From Enterobacteria phage RB33, in sequence record KM607001: DNA of 64,000 bases; one strand, given 5' to 3'. The stretch's first letter is position 1; each line of letters starts with the position of its first letter. Below the pieces are notes generated by a model. The model worked only from the letters and a program-made list of their open reading frames with translations. It made no database searches and was not told the origin of the DNA. Below, piece after piece: positions 1 through 53,520 of this stretch. Made by a program: the position numbers and the translations under genes.

Positions 1-2178
1 TTAGGCCGCAAGGGCCTTCATAGTTTTAGCGATTTGGGAAACTTCATCATCACTTAAAGAGTTGCGATAACCGATGAAGTCGGAAACAATACGGAATTTC
101 TTGGTAAACTCAGCAACCATTTTATCACTGTTTTTTGAAGCATTATTTGATAATACATCAAAAAGATTAGTTACTGTCCAGATGTCATGACCAATGGTAT
201 CTTTTCCACCATTAAAATATACACCCTGTAATGAACTAACCATATTAGCGAGTCGTGTATATTCTTCAGAAACTTCATCTACACTGAAGTACTTCATCAT
301 AAAATCTAGCTCAGGATACTTGATAATTTTATCAATATATCGTTTAGCTGAACTTGAATAACCTACATACTTATCATAATCTACATCATCAAAAGCATCT
401 ACATATAAATCACGTAAAGCTTCAAAAATACATTGGCACTGACCGAGTTCTTTTACCTTTTTCTGTAAAAGCGGACGAATAACATAAAATTCATTAATGC
501 CAATAAGATTAGCCATACGAATCAAAATATTCATAGATGGATGACAAAGAGATGTAGTACCATCCATAGAGAAAATATCAGAACGATGCATATACGCTAC
601 ATAACCAGTAATTTCATCTGCTTCTGACGTGAGCGTAAATAATTCCTCTTTTTCCCAGCGCCCGTCTTTAATTTCAAACTTAAATGCTGTAGCAGCTTTA
701 GGACGAGGAGCTTTACTTTTAACTACCTTTGGAATATAGCTTTTAACTAAAGCTTCAATTTCTGACAAATAATGAATGTTAACTTCATCACTTTCAAACA
801 TCGCCATAATGTCAGGAAGCAAATCAATCTGCGATTCTACTTCTGGATTAATAAACAGAAGGCGTTCGTTGTGATGAATATTTAAAGTGTTATTAAATTC
901 ACTATCATCTAACGCATGTGCTAATCCACGGACAATATTAACACGATTTTTAATATTATCAATAACGATATTAATTTTTGTTGTATTAATACCAAACAGA
1001 CGATAACTTGATGCAATGGCTGAAGTTTCATGACTTTGCTTAATGCGTTTCAGTCGAGGGTCAAGATTTACTTCATACACAACTCCTGCATTGCATAACT
1101 TACTGTCAGGTTCAAACATGCTTTGCATCTTTTTATATGACAGATTTTTAGTCGTGAATTTGACTGAATTACTAATCATATAATCTCGAGCAGAATACCC
1201 CATCTTCATCAATTCACGGTATGTGTGACGAGGAGATGTAGATTCTTTAAATCGTTTTACATCTTCATTAAATGCTTTCTCACTAAGCTCTTTAACTCGT
1301 TCAATAATATTTTTACGAGTACGATCATCCAGTGAAAGAGCTTCACGAGATGGAGCAATATCAAGTGAACCCATTGGAAACTTAATGTAATTCACTTCAT
1401 TGCGAATGCTTAGCCAGTTACGGTCTCTAATAACACCATCGATAGGATAAACAATACCACCATAGATAGCATATAATCCACCACGATCAGGCCAGTATCT
1501 TTCTGGATTTACGCCGTAATAATCATCAAAATCCGGAAAATAATCAATTTCGCGGTCAAGACCATTAATGATAGCCAAATCTTTGAATGGTCGCATGATA
1601 TAAGAAACTTCATAAGCAAAGTTTCTAAAGTCTTTTTCTTCAACTGGAACTACGATTTCAATACCAGTTTTATCATCTGGACCCATTTCTTTTACGAATG
1701 TAGGTTTAATCTGTGGTCCATCACCATCCATGTAAGCTACATAACCACGAATTTCACCTTTATGATACGAAGTAATACTAAACGTATCAGTATAACTAAA
1801 CGGAGATTTAGAACCTAAACCAAATCCGCCAATGAAATCGTTAGATTCAGCCTTAGATGAACTGAAGTATGAATTATACAGACCAGGAGAATTATCATCA
1901 CCCTGAATATCAAAATCACTCATACCCGGACCAAAATCTCGACAAACAAATCGCGGATCTAAACGTCCAGGAACTTGTATAATAAATTTTTCAGGATTTC
2001 CATTAAGTGCATGAGCATCAATCATGTTAGTAATCAATTCACGGACTACTGCGCGAATCTTGTTTGTATACAAATCAGATGACAGAATTTTAAATACTTT
2101 AGGAGATGCTGTGATGCTAAATGCTTTTGATTTAGAACCATTACCAAGAATTGTTTCTTTTTCAGTGGTGATAATCAT
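1..2178 (-). CDS. rIIA: rIIA protein, complete (725 aa); stop codon at window edge
   Basis: 725-aa ORF; N-terminus [16 protein letters not shown] and length match T4 rIIA as remembered. Confidence 0.9.
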
Positions 2179-5566: not shown

Positions 5567-5781
5567 TAATAAATTTCCTTCCAATAAGTTGTGCCATTTT
5601 CAGTAATTTCACGAAATACACCATAAATTGGTTGTTTATCACCGACTTTCTCATACACATAAACAGAAGTCAAGTGAGTAAACTTGCTAGTATGTTCCTT
5701 TTGAACTACTACCAAATTTGGATCAAATAATACATCTTCAAATTCATCATTAGTGCAATTCTGAACAATTTTACGTTTCAT
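5566..5781 (-). CDS. hypothetical 71-aa protein (cef position)
   Basis: ORF in track, co-directional with neighbours. Confidence 0.5.
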
Positions 5782-5952
5782 TACAATTTCCTCATTAATT
5801 GAACATTGGAGCGATGCGTTTCAGAAGAGTAGCAGCACCTTTGGCGAATTTTCCATTTTATTCTCCAAGTTGTTTTCTGTATCAGTAGTTGATATTGATA
5901 TAGTACCATAATCAACTACTGATGTATATAGTTTTATGAAAAATTTTAAACT

Positions 5953-6450
5953 TTATGCACAGCGAGCTTTGCTATAGTGTTTAATCCAACTTTCAGGAAT
6001 GACTTTGTATGTTCCTAAAAATACCGCATTGTACAGCTTAACACCATCTTCTACCCATTGATCGGTAATGTATGCACACATAGCGCGAGTACGATGTTTT
6101 TGAACAACCCCTTCCTCATCTTCGGTAAATTCGAATTCATAAGGAGCAATGAACTTAATAGCCTGACCGAGTTTCCACTTAAAGTCTACACCTACGTGCG
6201 AAGTATCAATCGTTTCAATTCCTTTAGCAGGAACAGCTTTCAAAAACGCAGATTCAAGAAATTTCGCACGAACATAGCCAAACTGAGGTTTAGACTTTCC
6301 ATCTTTAGGAATGATACGCACTTTTACTTCAGAATCTTCATCTTTAACACCATGCTTAAGCTGAATGCTTACAATTTCGACCAATTTTCCTGCTGCTTTA
6401 GAACGGGATTTATCAGATACACGAGCAATTTCACCAATATTAATAATCAT
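5953..6450 (-). CDS. motB: MotB-like protein (165 aa)
   Basis: size and position between the 39 region and dexA as in T4; shares a C-terminal domain with the next ORF. Confidence 0.55.
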   Translation of the reverse strand: MIINIGEIARVSDKSRSKAAGKLVEIVSIQLKHGVKDEDSEVKVRIIPKDGKSKPQFGYVRAKFLESAFLKAVPAKGIETIDTSHVGVDFKWKLGQAIKFIAPYEFEFTEDEEGVVQKHRTRAMCAYITDQWVEDGVKLYNAVFLGTYKVIPESWIKHYSKARCA

Positions 6451-31018: not shown

Positions 31019-31735
31019 ATGAATTATAAACTAATTTATGAAAAGTTAATCTCTAATGCTAAATCTCGAAAACTTGATTGCTATACTGAATCTCATCACA
31101 TTATACCACGCTGTTTAAATGGCAGCGATGATGCTTCAAACTTAGTAGATTTAACACCAGAAGAGCACTATGTAGCTCATCAACTTTTAGTAAAAATTTA
31201 TCCTTCTGAACCAAAATTAGTCTATGCTGCTAACATGATGACAGTTTCTACGAAATACGCTAAACGCAACAATAAAACTTTCGGTTGGATTCGTCGTAAA
31301 CTCTGGGAATTAGAAAAGAATAAAGAATTCTCCCAGGAGACACGAAAGAAAATGTCTGATGCAGTAGCTAATAAAGCAAGACTAACTTGTCCTCATTGCG
31401 GTAAGTCTGGATTAAGCGGGAATATGAATCGTTGGCATTTTGATAACTGCCCAAATCACCCTAATCCTAAAGTTAGACCACCAATGTCTAAAGAACACAG
31501 AAATAATATCTCAAACGGGCTTAAAGCAATCGTTCTTGAAGAAACATCCTGCGAATTCTGCGGAATGATAGGCAAGAAATGCGTTATCGCAGCGCATAGA
31601 AATTTCTGCAAGAAAAATCCAAATGGACGCAAGAAAACTGAAAAGACTGGTACTTGCGTCCATTGCGGTAAAGTTACCACTTTCGGAAATTTATCAAGGT
31701 GGCATAATGATAACTGTAAATATAAACCTAGCTAA
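31019..31735 (+). CDS. free-standing HNH homing endonuclease with C-terminal zinc-finger repeats, 238 aa
   Basis: HNH core ESHHIIPRCLNGSDDASNLVDLTPEEHYVAH; CPHCGK...WHFDNC and CVHCGK...WHNDNC; AAGGA before ATG. Confidence 0.8.
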   Translation: MNYKLIYEKLISNAKSRKLDCYTESHHIIPRCLNGSDDASNLVDLTPEEHYVAHQLLVKIYPSEPKLVYAANMMTVSTKYAKRNNKTFGWIRRKLWELEKNKEFSQETRKKMSDAVANKARLTCPHCGKSGLSGNMNRWHFDNCPNHPNPKVRPPMSKEHRNNISNGLKAIVLEETSCEFCGMIGKKCVIAAHRNFCKKNPNGRKKTEKTGTCVHCGKVTTFGNLSRWHNDNCKYKPS

Positions 31736-49864: not shown

Positions 49865-50179
49865 CTAAAAGAAACTTCTTTTACAATTTTTTCCACTGAA
49901 CCATGCGCTCACTGCTTTCTTAGTCTCAGGAGCAGTGTTATCCATAAACCATTCAAAGGCAGCCTTTTTATGATTCTGGAGGGCTTCTCGGGCTTTAATC
50001 TGCTCACGGTCTATTAACACTAACATATGAGCCTTTCTTGTCACCAAGGGCTTCTTATGATTTTTTGAATACTCCCAATCATTTGTCCATCGCATCGTTG
50101 TTGCGAATTGAAGTACAGCTTCTTTAATTTTAGTTTCGTAAATTTCACGAGCCTTTGAGTATAACATCATTACCTCCAT
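49865..50179 (-). CDS. hypothetical protein
   Basis: 104-aa ORF in track. Confidence 0.5.
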   Translation of the reverse strand: MEVMMLYSKAREIYETKIKEAVLQFATTMRWTNDWEYSKNHKKPLVTRKAHMLVLIDREQIKAREALQNHKKAAFEWFMDNTAPETKKAVSAWFSGKNCKRSFF

Positions 50180-50249
50180 TTACCAGTTTAATTCTAGTCA
50201 TCTTTTTGATGGCAGTCCATATAATCTATTTCTGAACTGCCTTTTTGTC

Positions 50250-50969
50250 TTAGGATTCTTCTAAATGTCTTTTCTGAAAAGTTGATACCATACTACGATA
50301 CGGTTCATTTGGATATCCGTGTTTTATAGCTTCCTTTGTAAATTTTCTCCATCCATATTTAGTTTCTTTCCAAAGCTCGAATAATTCATCTTCATACTGC
50401 CATATAGTTAAATGAGAACGCTTTGCAGCTTTAATTCCATTAATATGCTTTTCTTTTACTGCAGGATTGTTTAGTTTCTTTTTAATAATATTACTAACTT
50501 TTCTAACAAAAACTGGGTCCTTATATCGTTGCGAAGTTTTTATTGAAGTGTTTAATTTAGCTTCCGGCGTGGATGTGACCTCTTTCATCTTTTTCTTCAT
50601 ATGCTGTATATGATTAGGATTTTTCCATAAATTTATAGAATGCTTTTTGCATTTTATCCTAGTTTCATCTGCAACCTTTCCTCCTTCACCCCCGTATGAC
50701 AGGTTAACACAGTTTTTTCCATATTTCAATTTACCTGCCATGATATATAATATTTCAGCTTGTACCATTTTATCATAATTATCAAAAACTTCTAAAACCG
50801 TTTTTGATAATATGTGGTCATTTGACACTTTTACACGTTCTATATAATTTCCACTACCAACATACGAATCATTGATGTTATTAGTTATATGTCGACCATA
50901 ATAGTATTTCTTAATACCTGTCTTTAAATTTAATATTTCAGTTTTATAGATAGTAAAATATTTTTTCAT
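50250..50969 (-). CDS. putative GIY-YIG homing endonuclease with NUMOD-like C-terminal repeats, 239 aa
   Basis: N-terminal TIY-(x11)-YYYG-RH pattern; lysine-rich repeats resembling Seg/I-TevI DNA-binding modules. Confidence 0.5.
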   Translation of the reverse strand: MKKYFTIYKTEILNLKTGIKKYYYGRHITNNINDSYVGSGNYIERVKVSNDHILSKTVLEVFDNYDKMVQAEILYIMAGKLKYGKNCVNLSYGGEGGKVADETRIKCKKHSINLWKNPNHIQHMKKKMKEVTSTPEAKLNTSIKTSQRYKDPVFVRKVSNIIKKKLNNPAVKEKHINGIKAAKRSHLTIWQYEDELFELWKETKYGWRKFTKEAIKHGYPNEPYRSMVSTFQKRHLEES

Positions 50970-51946
50970 TTTAATAATACCGTTTCAGCGATTTCTTCCC
51001 AACCGTTTTTGTCGGTCATAATAAAGTCAGCAAGATAAAGAGCAGTACGCAGTGAAACATTGCGTAAACGATTAACATTGACTTTCATCCATGATAATGC
51101 TTTATAAGTTTCTTCATCAGAAAGACCGCGCTTTTGCATCATGTCGGTTGAAAGAATAACATCTTCAACCCTGACCATAATTTCTTCATTAGTGTGAACA
51201 CCCAAATCCAAATAAACCGAGCGGGACACTAATGCTTGTAAATGTGGAGCAAGTTTAGTACCACGGTCTAATTCGCGGTCAATGTCAACGTTTGTGATAA
51301 AAACAATCGTTCCTTTAAATTCAAACTCACGCTCAATGCCTTTTTCTTCTAAGTAAGAAGATGCAGTGCTCCAGCAGACTTTACGGGTCTCTCCAGTGTC
51401 CAGAGCAGCTTTCAGAAGATTAAGAATGTCCATATCAGAGAAAACATCCACATCATCAATCAAAAGGACAGAATTCTCTTCACGATTATTCCAAAGCTGC
51501 TCATAAAGACCAATACCAGAGATTTTACCATTAATGCTTTTATATTCAATGTATCCAATATCATTTGCTTTATTTAAAGCTTTATCTAAAGAATATGTTT
51601 TACCTATACCTGCCGCACCAGAGATAATTAATGAACGAATGTTTCCGTTAATAATACCATTCGTCATCATTCCCATAACATTAAATCTTTTATTAATGCG
51701 GGTTTTCATATCTTCATATGATTCTTTAACTTCTTCAACTTTTACACCATCATATGAAATGTCTGATTTGTAAACCCAAACACCGCGACGCTTACCGTCA
51801 ATTTCAACAAAAACTTTACCATCTCCTTGTGCATCTACCGGAGCATTATCTGGGAACCATTCACCTAAGAGCTCAAAAGTTCCAGAGATTTCTTTACCAA
51901 AGTAGATACCCTTATTGATAGTTACAGTTTTCATTTTATTCTCCAA
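50966..51946 (-). CDS. P-loop ATPase (AAA+-like), 326 aa
   Basis: Walker A GAAGIGKT, Walker B LLIDDVD. Confidence 0.65.
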   Translation of the reverse strand: MENKMKTVTINKGIYFGKEISGTFELLGEWFPDNAPVDAQGDGKVFVEIDGKRRGVWVYKSDISYDGVKVEEVKESYEDMKTRINKRFNVMGMMTNGIINGNIRSLIISGAAGIGKTYSLDKALNKANDIGYIEYKSINGKISGIGLYEQLWNNREENSVLLIDDVDVFSDMDILNLLKAALDTGETRKVCWSTASSYLEEKGIEREFEFKGTIVFITNVDIDRELDRGTKLAPHLQALVSRSVYLDLGVHTNEEIMVRVEDVILSTDMMQKRGLSDEETYKALSWMKVNVNRLRNVSLRTALYLADFIMTDKNGWEEIAETVLLK

Positions 51947-51968
51947 ATCCGTATCAGTTGATAGTTGT

Positions 51969-51998
51969 ATAGTACCATAAAGCTTTATGCTTGTAAAC
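51969..51998 (-). promoter_or_regulatory. T4-type early promoter (conserved module)
   Basis: GTTTAC-18 bp-TACTAT upstream of 51946. Confidence 0.5.
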
Positions 51999-52028
51999 CG
52001 TTTTGTGAAAAATTTTTGAAATAAAAAA

Positions 52029-52046
52029 GGGAGCCCGAAGGCTCCC
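52029..52046 (-). terminator. GGGAGCC-CGAAG-GCTCCC hairpin
   Basis: downstream of the nucleotidyltransferase-like gene. Confidence 0.5.
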
Positions 52047-52048
52047 TA

Positions 52049-53062
52049 TCATTTATAATAACTTCGGTGGTTTTCAAGATAGACCTTCTCAAGGAAGTCA
52101 TCCCAGAAACCCATGTCTACTTTTTGCTGCATACCGTTCTTAGAAGCTTCAGTAGATGCTGCTTCTACTTGATCGACCACATCTTCCAAAAACTCTTGAA
52201 CTGTTTTAAATGGATGTTTACCCAACTTCACGTCGAGAATAAATGGAGCATCTTGGAGTGGATAAACCAAGTCACCAGTTTTGTAAATTTCCAATAGTTG
52301 AAGTCCACCACGACAAGCATGACTCAGAGCTTTCCAGTCAATGCCTTCATTGGCTTCGGCCTTACGAGCGCGTTCACCATATTCAGCATCTAATTTGTTC
52401 AGTGACTGCTTAAGCTCAATAAGAGAAAGAGTTGTCTGATATTTACGACCCAACACAGTGTAGAACGTTTGTGGGCCTGTTTTCTCATGATTATGGAACA
52501 CCCATTCACAGAATTCGTTTTCTGGAAGACGATGCTTAATATCTTCAACTTTAGTACGACGCTGCTTAATGGAACCGTCTTCTTGGTAATCAACCCATTG
52601 CTCAGGGATTTGATTAACTACTTTCAATACATCGCGTAATGCAGCCAAACGAGAACCCTTGACGCCATATTTAGAAGCTTGCTTACGGACATATCCTAAA
52701 TAGGATTTCATGTTAGTCGTATAAAAACGAGAACGGTTGTCTTGAATAAACTTCCACACATCAGGCAAATCAGATTTAACCACTAATTCAGGTGGAGTGT
52801 GAAGCATATCCAATGCTACAGTTTCACCATCTGCTGCTAATTTAAAGAAATATTTAAGACTATATAGTTCATGGTCAATATCATCTTTAGTGTTTTTAGA
52901 TGATGTGTTGTTGGTATTTTTACTCATATGCTCTTTAACATTTCCGATAAGAATATCGCGAGCAGGAGGAACAAAAATTTCTTTAAAATCTACATCAGAT
53001 TCTGGGGTAGAAGTTCCATAAAGATGACTACCAAAATAGCTTTTCATTACTGTTTTCATCAT
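52049..53062 (-). CDS. predicted nucleotidyltransferase (Pol-beta-like fold), 337 aa
   Basis: N-terminal GS-x10-DVD motif (FGSHLYGTSTPESDVDF) with downstream acidic residue (DDIDHE). Confidence 0.55.
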   Translation of the reverse strand: MMKTVMKSYFGSHLYGTSTPESDVDFKEIFVPPARDILIGNVKEHMSKNTNNTSSKNTKDDIDHELYSLKYFFKLAADGETVALDMLHTPPELVVKSDLPDVWKFIQDNRSRFYTTNMKSYLGYVRKQASKYGVKGSRLAALRDVLKVVNQIPEQWVDYQEDGSIKQRRTKVEDIKHRLPENEFCEWVFHNHEKTGPQTFYTVLGRKYQTTLSLIELKQSLNKLDAEYGERARKAEANEGIDWKALSHACRGGLQLLEIYKTGDLVYPLQDAPFILDVKLGKHPFKTVQEFLEDVVDQVEAASTEASKNGMQQKVDMGFWDDFLEKVYLENHRSYYK

Positions 53063-53520
53063 TCAGCCTTATATTCAATAACAGGACATACTTTAGCTTT
53101 ACGAGCTTTTAAAAATTCAACGATAATCGATTTCTTGGGTTGAATAGGAGGTAAACCTTTATACGCCCTATCAATATTTTCTACGTGTAAAGCATAATCC
53201 TTTTTCCATTTATAATCTTTATATTTTTCACGCAAATGTACAGGAATAACAAATGAACCAATAATAAGTAAAACAACCAAAAGCGCAAGTATAAATGCTG
53301 ATGGAAGCAAAGTCCATAAACTACCAAAAATAAGCCAACGCTGTAGGCTTTCTGCACAAATAATTGTTAGCCCTACGAGTATAGCACATCCAAAAATAGA
53401 AACGAAAAATGTAGGAATGGCAATAGACCAAAAATATGCGCATAGTGTCTTAGGTCGTTGCCATTCATCGTTAAACATTTTGAATAATTTATAGTGCCAA
53501 GAGTTTTCATTAATAATCAT
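53059..53520 (-). CDS. hypothetical membrane protein, 153 aa
   Basis: about 3 predicted TM helices. Confidence 0.55.
   Translation of the reverse strand: MIINENSWHYKLFKMFNDEWQRPKTLCAYFWSIAIPTFFVSIFGCAILVGLTIICAESLQRWLIFGSLWTLLPSAFILALLVVLLIIGSFVIPVHLREKYKDYKWKKDYALHVENIDRAYKGLPPIQPKKSIIVEFLKARKAKVCPVIEYKAE

What the first reader, a model, noticed from the sequence alone, without database searches (positions are those of the whole stretch)
50250..50969. Putative GIY-YIG homing endonuclease immediately downstream of the ATPase/nucleotidyltransferase pair
The N-terminus has a TIY-(x11)-YYYG-RH arrangement resembling the GIY-YIG catalytic motif, and the C-terminal half has lysine-rich NUMOD-like repeats as in Seg proteins and I-TevI. 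With the HNH gene at 31019, the window would carry two distinct mobile endonuclease families. Its start overlaps the ATPase stop (ATGA), suggesting co-transcription.
Basis: partly seen in the sequence, partly recalled or inferred. Interest (0 to 1): 0.45.

Follow-up and report, generated by a model that had tools for sequence, protein, structure and literature searches.

The report
Seg-type GIY-YIG homing endonuclease gene
This is a selfish "homing" nuclease gene of the well-known Seg (GIY-YIG) kind, inserted just after gene nrdC.10 in phage RB32; it is already annotated as such in the public record, so the finding is correct but ordinary.

Summary
The window is Escherichia phage RB32. The ORF at 50250-50969 (minus strand, 239 aa) is RB32ORF093c, already annotated [quoted passage not shown].

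The ORF, the ATGA overlap with nrdC.10 and the GIY/YIG-like motif are all real. The motif spacer is 13 residues, not 11.

Pfam, NCBIfam and PDB sequence searches find nothing directly. The assignment still holds on five grounds:
- PHROG_314 "homing endonuclease", E=1.7e-30.
- 1401 homologues, many of which carry GIY-YIG and NUMOD3 domains.
- All family-invariant residues are kept.
- The AlphaFold model has pLDDT 95.5.

The population pattern fits a mobile homing gene:
- 64 of about 505 close relatives carry it; T4 and T2 do not.
- A 733-bp segment replaces 36-37 bp, with sharp edges.
- The last codons of nrdC.10 are recoded.
- The flanks are mosaic, and the insert is 3-4 times less diverse than they are.
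- AR1 and RB3 carry broken copies.
- A 46%-identical homologue sits at the same spot in 7 of about 141 Klebsiella Jiaodavirus genomes.

The likely target is the 3' end of nrdC.10. This is inferred, not shown. Novelty: none.

The parts
50250..50969 (-). Free-standing seg-like GIY-YIG homing endonuclease gene (RB32ORF093c, YP_803035.1), 239 aa plus TAA stop
   Evidence: The ORF is listed. It is 100% identical to the RB32 record, where it is annotated 'putative site-specific intron-like DNA endonuclease, similar to seg'. PHROG_314 'homing endonuclease', E=1.7e-30.
50676..50969 (-). GIY-YIG catalytic domain, aa 1-98. Key residues: Y8, Y23-x-G25, H27, T29, D34, Y36, G38-S39-G40, E72, N89, G93-G94.
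50412..50672 (-). Five tandem helices of about 15-17 residues (aa 100-186) ending in NP/TP/DP: degenerate NUMOD3-like, lysine-rich putative DNA-binding repeats
   Evidence: Model helices 101-116, 118-132, 135-149, 152-166 and 169-185. These segments align with Pfam-positive NUMOD3 motifs of homologues P0011, P0014 and P0019. There is no direct NUMOD hit for the query.
50253..50411 (-). C-terminal three-helix module (aa 187-239, IWQYEDELFELW...GYPNEPY), probably a helix-turn-helix DNA-binding domain
50254..50986 (.). Whole seg-specific segment (733 bp) that replaces 37 bp (T4) or 36 bp (T2) of seg-less relatives
   Evidence: Alignments with T4 and T2. In 6 seg+ versus 5 seg- genomes over 12.3 kb, every perfectly seg-associated column lies in 50254..50984.
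50966..50986 (-). Recoded last six sense codons plus stop of nrdC.10, including the ATGA stop/start overlap. RB32 reads GAA ACG GTA TTA TTA AAA TGA; T2 reads GAG GTT ACT CTT CTG AAA TAA.
   Evidence: The protein end changes only from ...EIATVTLLK (T4) to ...EIAETVLLK (RB32). I infer that this recoding destroys the homing site in seg+ genomes.
50966..51934 (-). nrdC.10 (AAA-type ATPase, PHROG_1250): the host gene whose 3' end is the insertion point and likely target
49865..50179 (-). nrdC.9 (DUF7203), the downstream neighbour. The 70-nt spacer to it is shared with T4.

Best explanation
The ORF encodes a free-standing Seg-type homing endonuclease. It has an N-terminal GIY-YIG nuclease domain. 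This is tethered to an extended DNA-binding half made of five NUMOD3-like helices and a terminal three-helix module.

Inferred steps:
1. The gene is expressed from the nrdC.10 transcript, probably by translational coupling through the ATGA overlap.
2. In a cell co-infected with a seg-less relative (T4/T2 type), the enzyme cuts that genome at or near the 3' end of nrdC.10. The candidate site is ...GAAATCGCT(G/A)(A/C)GGTTACTCTTCTGAAATAA(A)TTCATAAGAGG...
3. Recombinational repair from the RB32 copy converts the recipient to seg+. This is 'intronless homing'.
4. RB32's own copy is protected because insertion recoded the last nrdC.10 codons and replaced the adjoining spacer.

Shown here: the fold, the family, the sporadic distribution, the sharp junctions, and the recoded host-gene end.

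Inferred only: enzymatic activity, target position, and mode of expression.
For: **Identity.** 100% match to RB32; the gene is already annotated as seg-like. RB32 is listed with 2 seg-like GIY-YIG genes in Petrov et al. 2010, Table 5 (PMC2993671).

**Family.**
- PHROG_314, E=1.7e-30, shared with the proven SegH.
- BLASTP to SegH 2.5e-12, SegB 2e-12, VR26 SegA-like 6e-21.
- 1401 homologues, of which 47/101 carry SegE_GIY-YIG, 33/101 GIY-YIG and 37/101 NUMOD3.
- All family-invariant residues are retained.

**Fold.**
- pLDDT 95.5.
- BFVD gives 110 hits at E<=1e-3; the named ones listed are almost all Seg/GIY-YIG endonucleases.

**Mobility signature.**
- 64 of about 505 records at >=95% identity carry the gene. 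393 records carry the empty junction.
- A 733-bp block replaces 36-37 bp.
- Seg-linked differences are confined to 50254-50984 across 12.3 kb.
- The flanks are mosaic. Among seg+ genomes pi is 0.029 and 0.020 in the flanks versus 0.0064 in the insert.
- AR1 and RB3 carry frameshifted or split copies.

**Same site in another genus.**
- A 46%-identical homologue lies directly after the nrdC.10 homologue in 7 of about 141 Jiaodavirus genomes.
- The breakpoint is in the same last codons.
- The seg-less alleles share ...GT(T/A)AC(T/A)..CTGAAATAA.
Against: - No direct Pfam, NCBIfam or PDB sequence hit for the query itself.
- Foldseek against PDB with the full-length model found nothing significant.
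- The canonical catalytic Arg of GIY-YIG enzymes (R27 in I-TevI) cannot be placed. This subfamily has an invariant His and a GSG loop there instead.
- Characterised free-standing Seg enzymes usually cut hundreds to thousands of bp away from their own gene (PMC2988022). A target right at the junction would therefore be atypical.
- The association test used only 11 genomes and +/-5-6 kb.
- No cleavage or homing experiment for this protein was found in the literature searched.
Confidence: 0.8

Rival explanations
1. The gene is an inactive or decaying relic of a homing endonuclease. It still has the Seg fold but no longer cleaves or homes, and persists only because it has not yet been deleted.
For: Copies in AR1 (1-nt deletion, truncated at 165 aa) and RB3 (split into 159- and 96-aa ORFs) are visibly broken. 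The query scores below every Pfam GIY-YIG threshold. It has an unusually long beta-hairpin between the GIY and YIG motifs. About half of the few substitutions among copies are non-synonymous: 6 N versus 5 S, a rough count.
Against: Every invariant or near-invariant family residue is intact, including Y8, Y23, G25, E72 and N89. The ORF is full length in T6, RB7, VIPECOOM01, pSe_SNUABM_01 and RB32. The insert is 3-4 times less diverse than its flanks and sits on several flank haplotypes, which argues for recent spread. The proven SegH also falls below Pfam's gathering score for SegE_GIY-YIG (18.6 versus 25 bits), so a missing Pfam hit says little.
Confidence: 0.12
2. The nuclease has been co-opted for a phage-beneficial role and is no longer purely selfish. 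One possibility is excluding competing T-even phages. Another is creating breaks that drive segmental amplification of nearby genes, as reported for SegB of T6.
For: SegB of T6 promotes amplification of anti-defence loci in cis and in trans (PMC13096335). Seg and Mob enzymes underlie marker exclusion of T2 by T4 (PMC2988022). The gene lies beside the conserved nrdC.10/nrdC.11 ATPase-nucleotidyltransferase pair.
Against: Nothing in the sequence data is specific to this reading. Only about 13% of close relatives carry the gene and broken copies exist, which fits a selfish element better than a selected function. This reading does not exclude the best explanation.
Confidence: 0.06
3. It is a conserved core gene of the nrdC cluster with a non-nuclease function. 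The GIY/YIG-like letters would then be coincidental.
For: There is no direct Pfam or NCBIfam hit. It overlaps and is probably co-expressed with nrdC.10.
Against: It is absent from T4, T2 and about 87% of Tequatrovirus records, whose flanks are otherwise 97-98% identical. The fold and family evidence is unambiguous.
Confidence: 0.01

Closest known systems
SegH of phages LZ2/U5 (free-standing GIY-YIG homing endonuclease between nrdD and nrdG; Sandegren, Nord and Sjoberg 2005, cited in PMC2988022)
   Same: Same PHROG_314. 31% identity over the first 151 residues, E=2.5e-12. Same signature: Y..Y-x-G-x-H-x-T...D-x-Y-x-G-S-G...E...N-x-x-x-G-G-x-G-G. Both are free-standing, inserted right after a conserved gene with an overlapping start, and sporadic among T-even phages.
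   Different: Different insertion locus (nrdC.10/nrdC.9 versus nrdD/nrdG). SegH has clear NUMOD3 and I-TevI-type DNA-binding hits, whereas the RB32 protein has degenerate repeats and a different C-terminal three-helix module. The RB32 protein has a beta-hairpin 4 residues longer. SegH is experimentally proven; this protein is not.
T4 SegA-SegG family (Pfam PF19835 SegE_GIY-YIG; 'intronless homing')
   Same: Same two-part architecture: a GIY-YIG domain plus an extended DNA-binding half. Same genomic lifestyle in T-even phages. SegB matches at E=2e-12 and the VR26 SegA-like protein at 6e-21, the latter sharing the C-terminal module. T4 gp69/SegF is among the BFVD structural hits.
   Different: None of the seven T4 seg genes lies at nrdC.10/nrdC.9 (table in PMC2988022). 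The T4 locus is empty. Identity to any of them is below 30%. Characterised Seg enzymes mostly cut far from their gene, whereas here all seg-linked sequence differences hug the insertion.
I-TevI (intron-encoded GIY-YIG endonuclease of T4 td; PDB 1LN0/1MK0)
   Different: Not intron-encoded. About 18% identity. No zinc finger. The R27/H31 helix of I-TevI is replaced by the His-Thr...Asp-x-Tyr-x-Gly-Ser-Gly loop typical of Seg proteins.
Klebsiella Jiaodavirus homologue (e.g. XHB24490.1 in phage vB_Kpn529046-KEN25_1)
   Same: 46% identity over the full length, with the same long hairpin and the same C-terminal module. Same position directly after the nrdC.10 homologue, with a breakpoint in the same terminal codons. 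Also sporadic: 7 of about 141 genomes.
   Different: It is separated from nrdC.10 by 8 nt rather than overlapping it. It recodes the gene end differently (…EVTQLRG*). It replaces a terminator-like hairpin that is present in seg-less JD18.

Membership tests
GIY-YIG nuclease superfamily | 'GIY' motif: conserved Tyr in beta-strand 1 | tested here: met
   Y8 (TIY), conserved in all 99 of the 101 aligned homologues that have a residue at that column. It lies in model strand 4-14.
GIY-YIG nuclease superfamily | 'YIG' motif: Tyr-x-Gly in beta-strand 2, about 10-11 residues after GIY | tested here: met
   Y23-Y24-G25, with Y23 in 100/101 and G25 in 101/101. The spacing is longer than canonical: 14 residues between the two Tyr, because of two 2-residue insertions.
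GIY-YIG nuclease superfamily | Conserved catalytic Arg in the helix after YIG (R27 of I-TevI) | tested here: inconclusive
   R26 is not conserved (K37/M29/R9 of 101). The subfamily instead has an invariant H27 and a D34-x-Y36-x-G38-S39-G40 loop. Basic residues cluster in helix 41-48 (R45: R33/K15). No residue-level superposition was available.
GIY-YIG nuclease superfamily | Metal-binding Glu (E75 of I-TevI) and downstream Asn (N90) | tested here: met
   E72 and N89 are invariant, 101/101. They align to the E75 and N90 region of I-TevI in the profile match to 1ln0.
GIY-YIG nuclease superfamily | Three-stranded antiparallel sheet flanked by helices (GIY-YIG fold) | tested here: met
Seg-type free-standing homing endonucleases (Pfam PF19835 / PHROG_314) | Significant profile match to the family | tested here: met
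   PHROG_314, E=1.7e-30, over residues 1-238. The Pfam PF19835 model itself does not hit the query, but it hits 47 of its 101 homologues. It scores the proven SegH below cut-off too.
Seg-type free-standing homing endonucleases (Pfam PF19835 / PHROG_314) | NUMOD3-type DNA-binding repeats in the C-terminal half | tested here: inconclusive
   No direct NUMOD hit at E<=10, whether whole protein or excised segment. 37/101 homologues have NUMOD3, and their motifs align with the query's five helices.
Homing endonuclease gene (functional class) | Presence/absence polymorphism at a fixed site among otherwise collinear, near-identical genomes | tested here: met
   64 carriers among about 505 records at >=95% identity. 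Sharp junctions. 7 of about 141 in Jiaodavirus.
Homing endonuclease gene (functional class) | The carrier allele differs from the empty allele at the target, giving self-immunity | tested here: inconclusive
   The last nrdC.10 codons are recoded in both genera. These are the only seg-associated differences within 12.3 kb. The actual recognition site is unknown.
Homing endonuclease gene (functional class) | Site-specific double-strand cleavage of the empty allele, and biased (non-reciprocal) inheritance in mixed infection | not testable with these tools
   Needs biochemistry and phage crosses. No published test for this protein was found.

The most novel reading that the evidence does not exclude
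One Seg lineage has followed the same target, the last codons of nrdC.10, across two phage genera (Tequatrovirus and Jiaodavirus) while diverging to 46% identity. Unlike the characterised T4 Seg enzymes, it cuts right at its own insertion point. If so, this would be a natural matched pair for studying how a GIY-YIG enzyme and its target co-evolve. It would also be a rare free-standing endonuclease with intron-like 'cut where you sit' geometry.
Probability: 0.3. Interest if true: 0.35.

Novelty: already known. Interest (0 to 1): 0.12.

Why it matters
It matters little beyond bookkeeping. The gene has been annotated as a seg-like endonuclease in the RB32 GenBank record since 2006, and it is counted among RB32's homing endonuclease genes in a 2010 review.

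Three points are modestly useful:
- The assignment, invisible to Pfam and NCBIfam, is now backed by fold and family evidence.
- There is a concrete, testable candidate homing site at the 3' end of nrdC.10, and an orthologous insertion in Klebsiella phages.
- The enzyme itself has not been characterised experimentally in the literature I could search. It could add one more specificity to the GIY-YIG toolbox and one more marker-exclusion locus in T-even crosses.

Tried and rejected
- **Direct searches of the query.** Pfam (whole protein, and three excised segments at E<=10), NCBIfam and PDB sequences all gave no relevant hit. This is a sensitivity problem: the proven SegH also fails Pfam's GIY-YIG cut-offs.
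- **Word-indexed homologue search.** It returned only 2 proteins. The exhaustive phmmer search was needed.
- **Profile search of PDB sequences.** I-TevI came top, but only at E=0.21.
- **Own promoter.** No T4 late-promoter consensus TATAAATA lies near the gene, and there is no convincing sigma-70-like or terminator site between nrdC.10 and the ORF. A weak promoter-like match at 51002-50974 ends 5 nt before the ATG and was dismissed.
- **Longer inserts in other phages.** I first suspected that the larger locus spans seen in T2, U115 and KAW1E185 were alternative inserts at the same site. They lie in the nrdC.11/nrdC.10 spacer instead.
- **'Empty but recoded' (immune, HEG-lost) alleles.** None found: the recoded junction occurs in exactly the 64 carrier records.
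- **Literature.** Searches for RB32ORF093c, and for nrdC.10 plus endonuclease, found no characterisation.

Full report
**1. What is there**

The window is Escherichia phage RB32. A 2.3-kb stretch around the finding is 100% identical to NC_008515/DQ904452, and window coordinate = record coordinate + 119.

The reported interval 50250..50969 is an ORF of 239 codons on the minus strand. It is RB32ORF093c (YP_803035.1), annotated 'putative site-specific intron-like DNA endonuclease; similar to seg'. Its neighbours are:
- nrdC.10 upstream: AAA-type ATPase, 50966..51934.
- nrdC.9 downstream: 49865..50179.
- nrdC.11 further upstream: RlaP-type nucleotidyltransferase.

The + strand reads tcat at 50966-50969. 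The ORF's ATG therefore overlaps the TGA of nrdC.10 as ATGA.

The N-terminus reads MKKYFTIYKTEILNLKTGIKKYYYGRH.

**2. Is it a GIY-YIG enzyme?**

Direct searches fail:
- Pfam, no hit even at E<=10.
- NCBIfam, no hit.
- PDB chain sequences, no hit.

Other evidence is consistent and strong:
- PHROGs places the whole protein in PHROG_314 'homing endonuclease', E=1.7e-30. That is the same family as the experimentally proven SegH of phage LZ2, which scores 3.6e-60.
- BLASTP gives SegH 2.5e-12, SegB (phage PST) 2e-12 and a SegA-like protein of VR26 6e-21.
- An exhaustive phmmer search of 1.84 billion representatives finds 1401 homologues at E<=1e-3.
- Of 101 aligned homologues, 47 hit Pfam SegE_GIY-YIG, 33 hit GIY-YIG and 37 hit NUMOD3.
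- The alignment has invariant G25, Y36, G38, G40, E72 and N89. Near-invariant are Y8, Y23, H27, T29, D34, S39, G93 and G94. The RB32 protein keeps all of them.
- The longer GIY-YIG spacing comes from two 2-residue insertions in the first hairpin, shared with its closest relative.
- An AlphaFold2 model built on this alignment is very confident (mean pLDDT 95.5). It shows a beta-beta-alpha-beta-alpha N-domain (1-98), five helices of about 15 residues (101-185) and a terminal three-helix module (188-238).
- Foldseek against BFVD gives 110 hits at E<=1e-3. Nearly all the named ones listed are Seg-like or GIY-YIG endonucleases.

Negative or weak results:
- Foldseek against PDB with the full-length model found nothing.
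- The profile search of PDB sequences puts I-TevI first, but only at E=0.21.

The failure of Pfam is not informative. SegH itself scores below the gathering threshold.

One defining feature remains unresolved, the canonical catalytic Arg. R26 is not conserved. The subfamily has H27 and a D-x-Y-x-G-S-G loop in that region instead.

**3. The DNA-binding half**

The C-terminal 141 residues contain 25 lysines. No NUMOD profile matches the query directly. The five helices do align with Pfam-positive NUMOD3 motifs of homologues, for example LSEETKKKIADFNLGKK against ADETRIKCKKHSINLWK.

**4. Is it mobile?**

Distribution:
- Of 632 phage records matching the locus, about 505 are >=95% identical in the flanks. 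Only 64 cover the insert.
- A 59-nt probe across the seg+ junction finds the same 64 records. A 71-nt probe of the empty junction finds 393.
- T4 and T2 are empty.

Junctions:
- Homology with T4 and T2 is perfect up to 50253 and resumes at 50987.
- Between these points, 733 bp in RB32 replace 37 bp (T4) or 36 bp (T2).
- The replaced stretch includes the last six sense codons and the stop of nrdC.10. In RB32 these are recoded: GAA ACG GTA TTA TTA AAA TGA against GAG GTT ACT CTT CTG AAA TAA. The protein end barely changes, from ...EIATVTLLK to ...EIAETVLLK.

Linkage and diversity:
- In 6 seg+ and 5 seg- genomes aligned over 12.3 kb, every column perfectly associated with seg lies within 50254..50984. 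The flanking SNPs are shuffled between the two classes.
- Among seg+ genomes, nucleotide diversity is 0.0064 in the insert against 0.029 and 0.020 in the flanks. Divergence in the flanks between the two classes (0.024 and 0.019) is no higher than within them.
- This pattern suggests that the insert has spread across pre-existing haplotypes more recently than those haplotypes diverged.

Decay: AR1 has a 1-nt deletion truncating the protein to 165 aa, and RB3 has the gene split in two. This is the expected decay phase of such elements.

**5. Same site in another genus**

The nearest relative outside Tequatrovirus has 46% identity over the full length. It lies directly after the nrdC.10 homologue of Klebsiella Jiaodavirus phages. 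It is present in 7 of about 141 close genomes.

The breakpoint against seg-less JD18 again falls in the last codons of nrdC.10. The empty alleles of the two genera share ...GAAAT(C/T)GCT(G/A)(A/C)(G/A)GT(T/A)AC(T/A)..CTGAAATAA.... Both carrier alleles have rewritten this stretch, each in a different way.

I therefore propose this stretch as the homing site. There is a caveat. Characterised free-standing Seg enzymes usually cut hundreds to thousands of bp from their gene (PMC2988022). The target position is thus an inference from linkage in 11 genomes and is not a demonstration.

**6. Expression**

A terminator-like hairpin (52028-52047) and a promoter-like site lie upstream of nrdC.10. Nothing comparable separates nrdC.10 from the ORF.

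No late-promoter consensus lies nearby. No Shine-Dalgarno sequence is evident in the 30 nt upstream.

Co-transcription with nrdC.10 and translational coupling through ATGA is the simplest reading. It is untested.

**7. Comparison and novelty**

The protein works like SegA-H and meets the tested criteria for the family. The exceptions are the unplaced Arg and the indirect NUMOD evidence.

It is not one of the seven T4 seg genes, and the T4 table lists nothing at nrdC.10/nrdC.9. Labels such as 'segE' in AR1 and RB68 are best-hit names and do not indicate orthology.

The gene is annotated in GenBank. RB32 is listed with two seg-like GIY-YIG and two mob-like HNH genes in Petrov et al. 2010 (PMC2993671). 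I found no experimental study of this particular enzyme.

**Verdict**

- The finding is already known and of low interest.
- The only mildly new elements are the candidate target and the cross-genus orthologous insertion.

Noticed in passing
It scores PHROG_655 at 6e-69, but Pfam HNH only at E=0.007. It lies on the opposite strand to its neighbours (45.2 and gene 46). An exact T4 late-promoter consensus TATAAATA sits 33 nt upstream of its ATG.
   Followed up: partly
window ~51935..52048 (nrdC.11/nrdC.10 spacer); loci L003, L004, L005: This spacer is a second variable spot. T2 carries a 486-nt ORF there, U115 two small ORFs and KAW1E185 a 201-nt ORF. RB32 and T4 have only a terminator-like hairpin, at 52028..52047 in the window.
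   Followed up: no
window 53059..53520 (-); loci L022, L023, L025: RB32ORF096c is annotated 'replaces mobD'. T4, RB7 and pSe_SNUABM_01 carry the HNH gene mobD at that position, overlapping the end of nrdC.11. RB32, T6, AR1, wV7 and teqskov have a 462-nt ORF instead. The nrdC.10-nrdC.11 pair is thus flanked by two independent endonuclease insertion sites.
   Followed up: no
L011 / L024 (phage AR1) locus 5672..6169; RB3 proteins A0A097J0Y0 and A0A097J0Y1: Decayed copies of the same seg gene. AR1 has a single-base deletion at nt 458 that truncates the protein to 165 aa. RB3 has it split into 159- and 96-aa ORFs. Sequencing error cannot be excluded.
   Followed up: partly
window 50184..50249 (-), spacer between the seg stop and nrdC.9: An imperfect hairpin, GGCAGTTCAG...(loop)...GGACTGCC, lies in the spacer shared with T4 just downstream of the insertion point. 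Its role (RNA processing, or translational control of nrdC.9) was not examined.
   Followed up: no
L018 (Klebsiella phage JD18) ~1279..1320: Seg-less Jiaodavirus genomes have a strong terminator-like hairpin (GGGAGGAGAAATCCTCCC) right after nrdC.10. In the seg-carrying allele it is deleted and replaced by the endonuclease gene, so insertion probably changes transcription read-through into the downstream genes.
   Followed up: no
T6 record NC_054907 (L010, L020): Several product names in this RefSeq record look like mis-transferred annotation. nrdC.9 is called 'HNH homing endonuclease', nrdC.8 is linked to 'tail sheath protein', and mobD.1 is called 'molybdopterin-guanine dinucleotide biosynthesis protein MobD'.
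   Followed up: no
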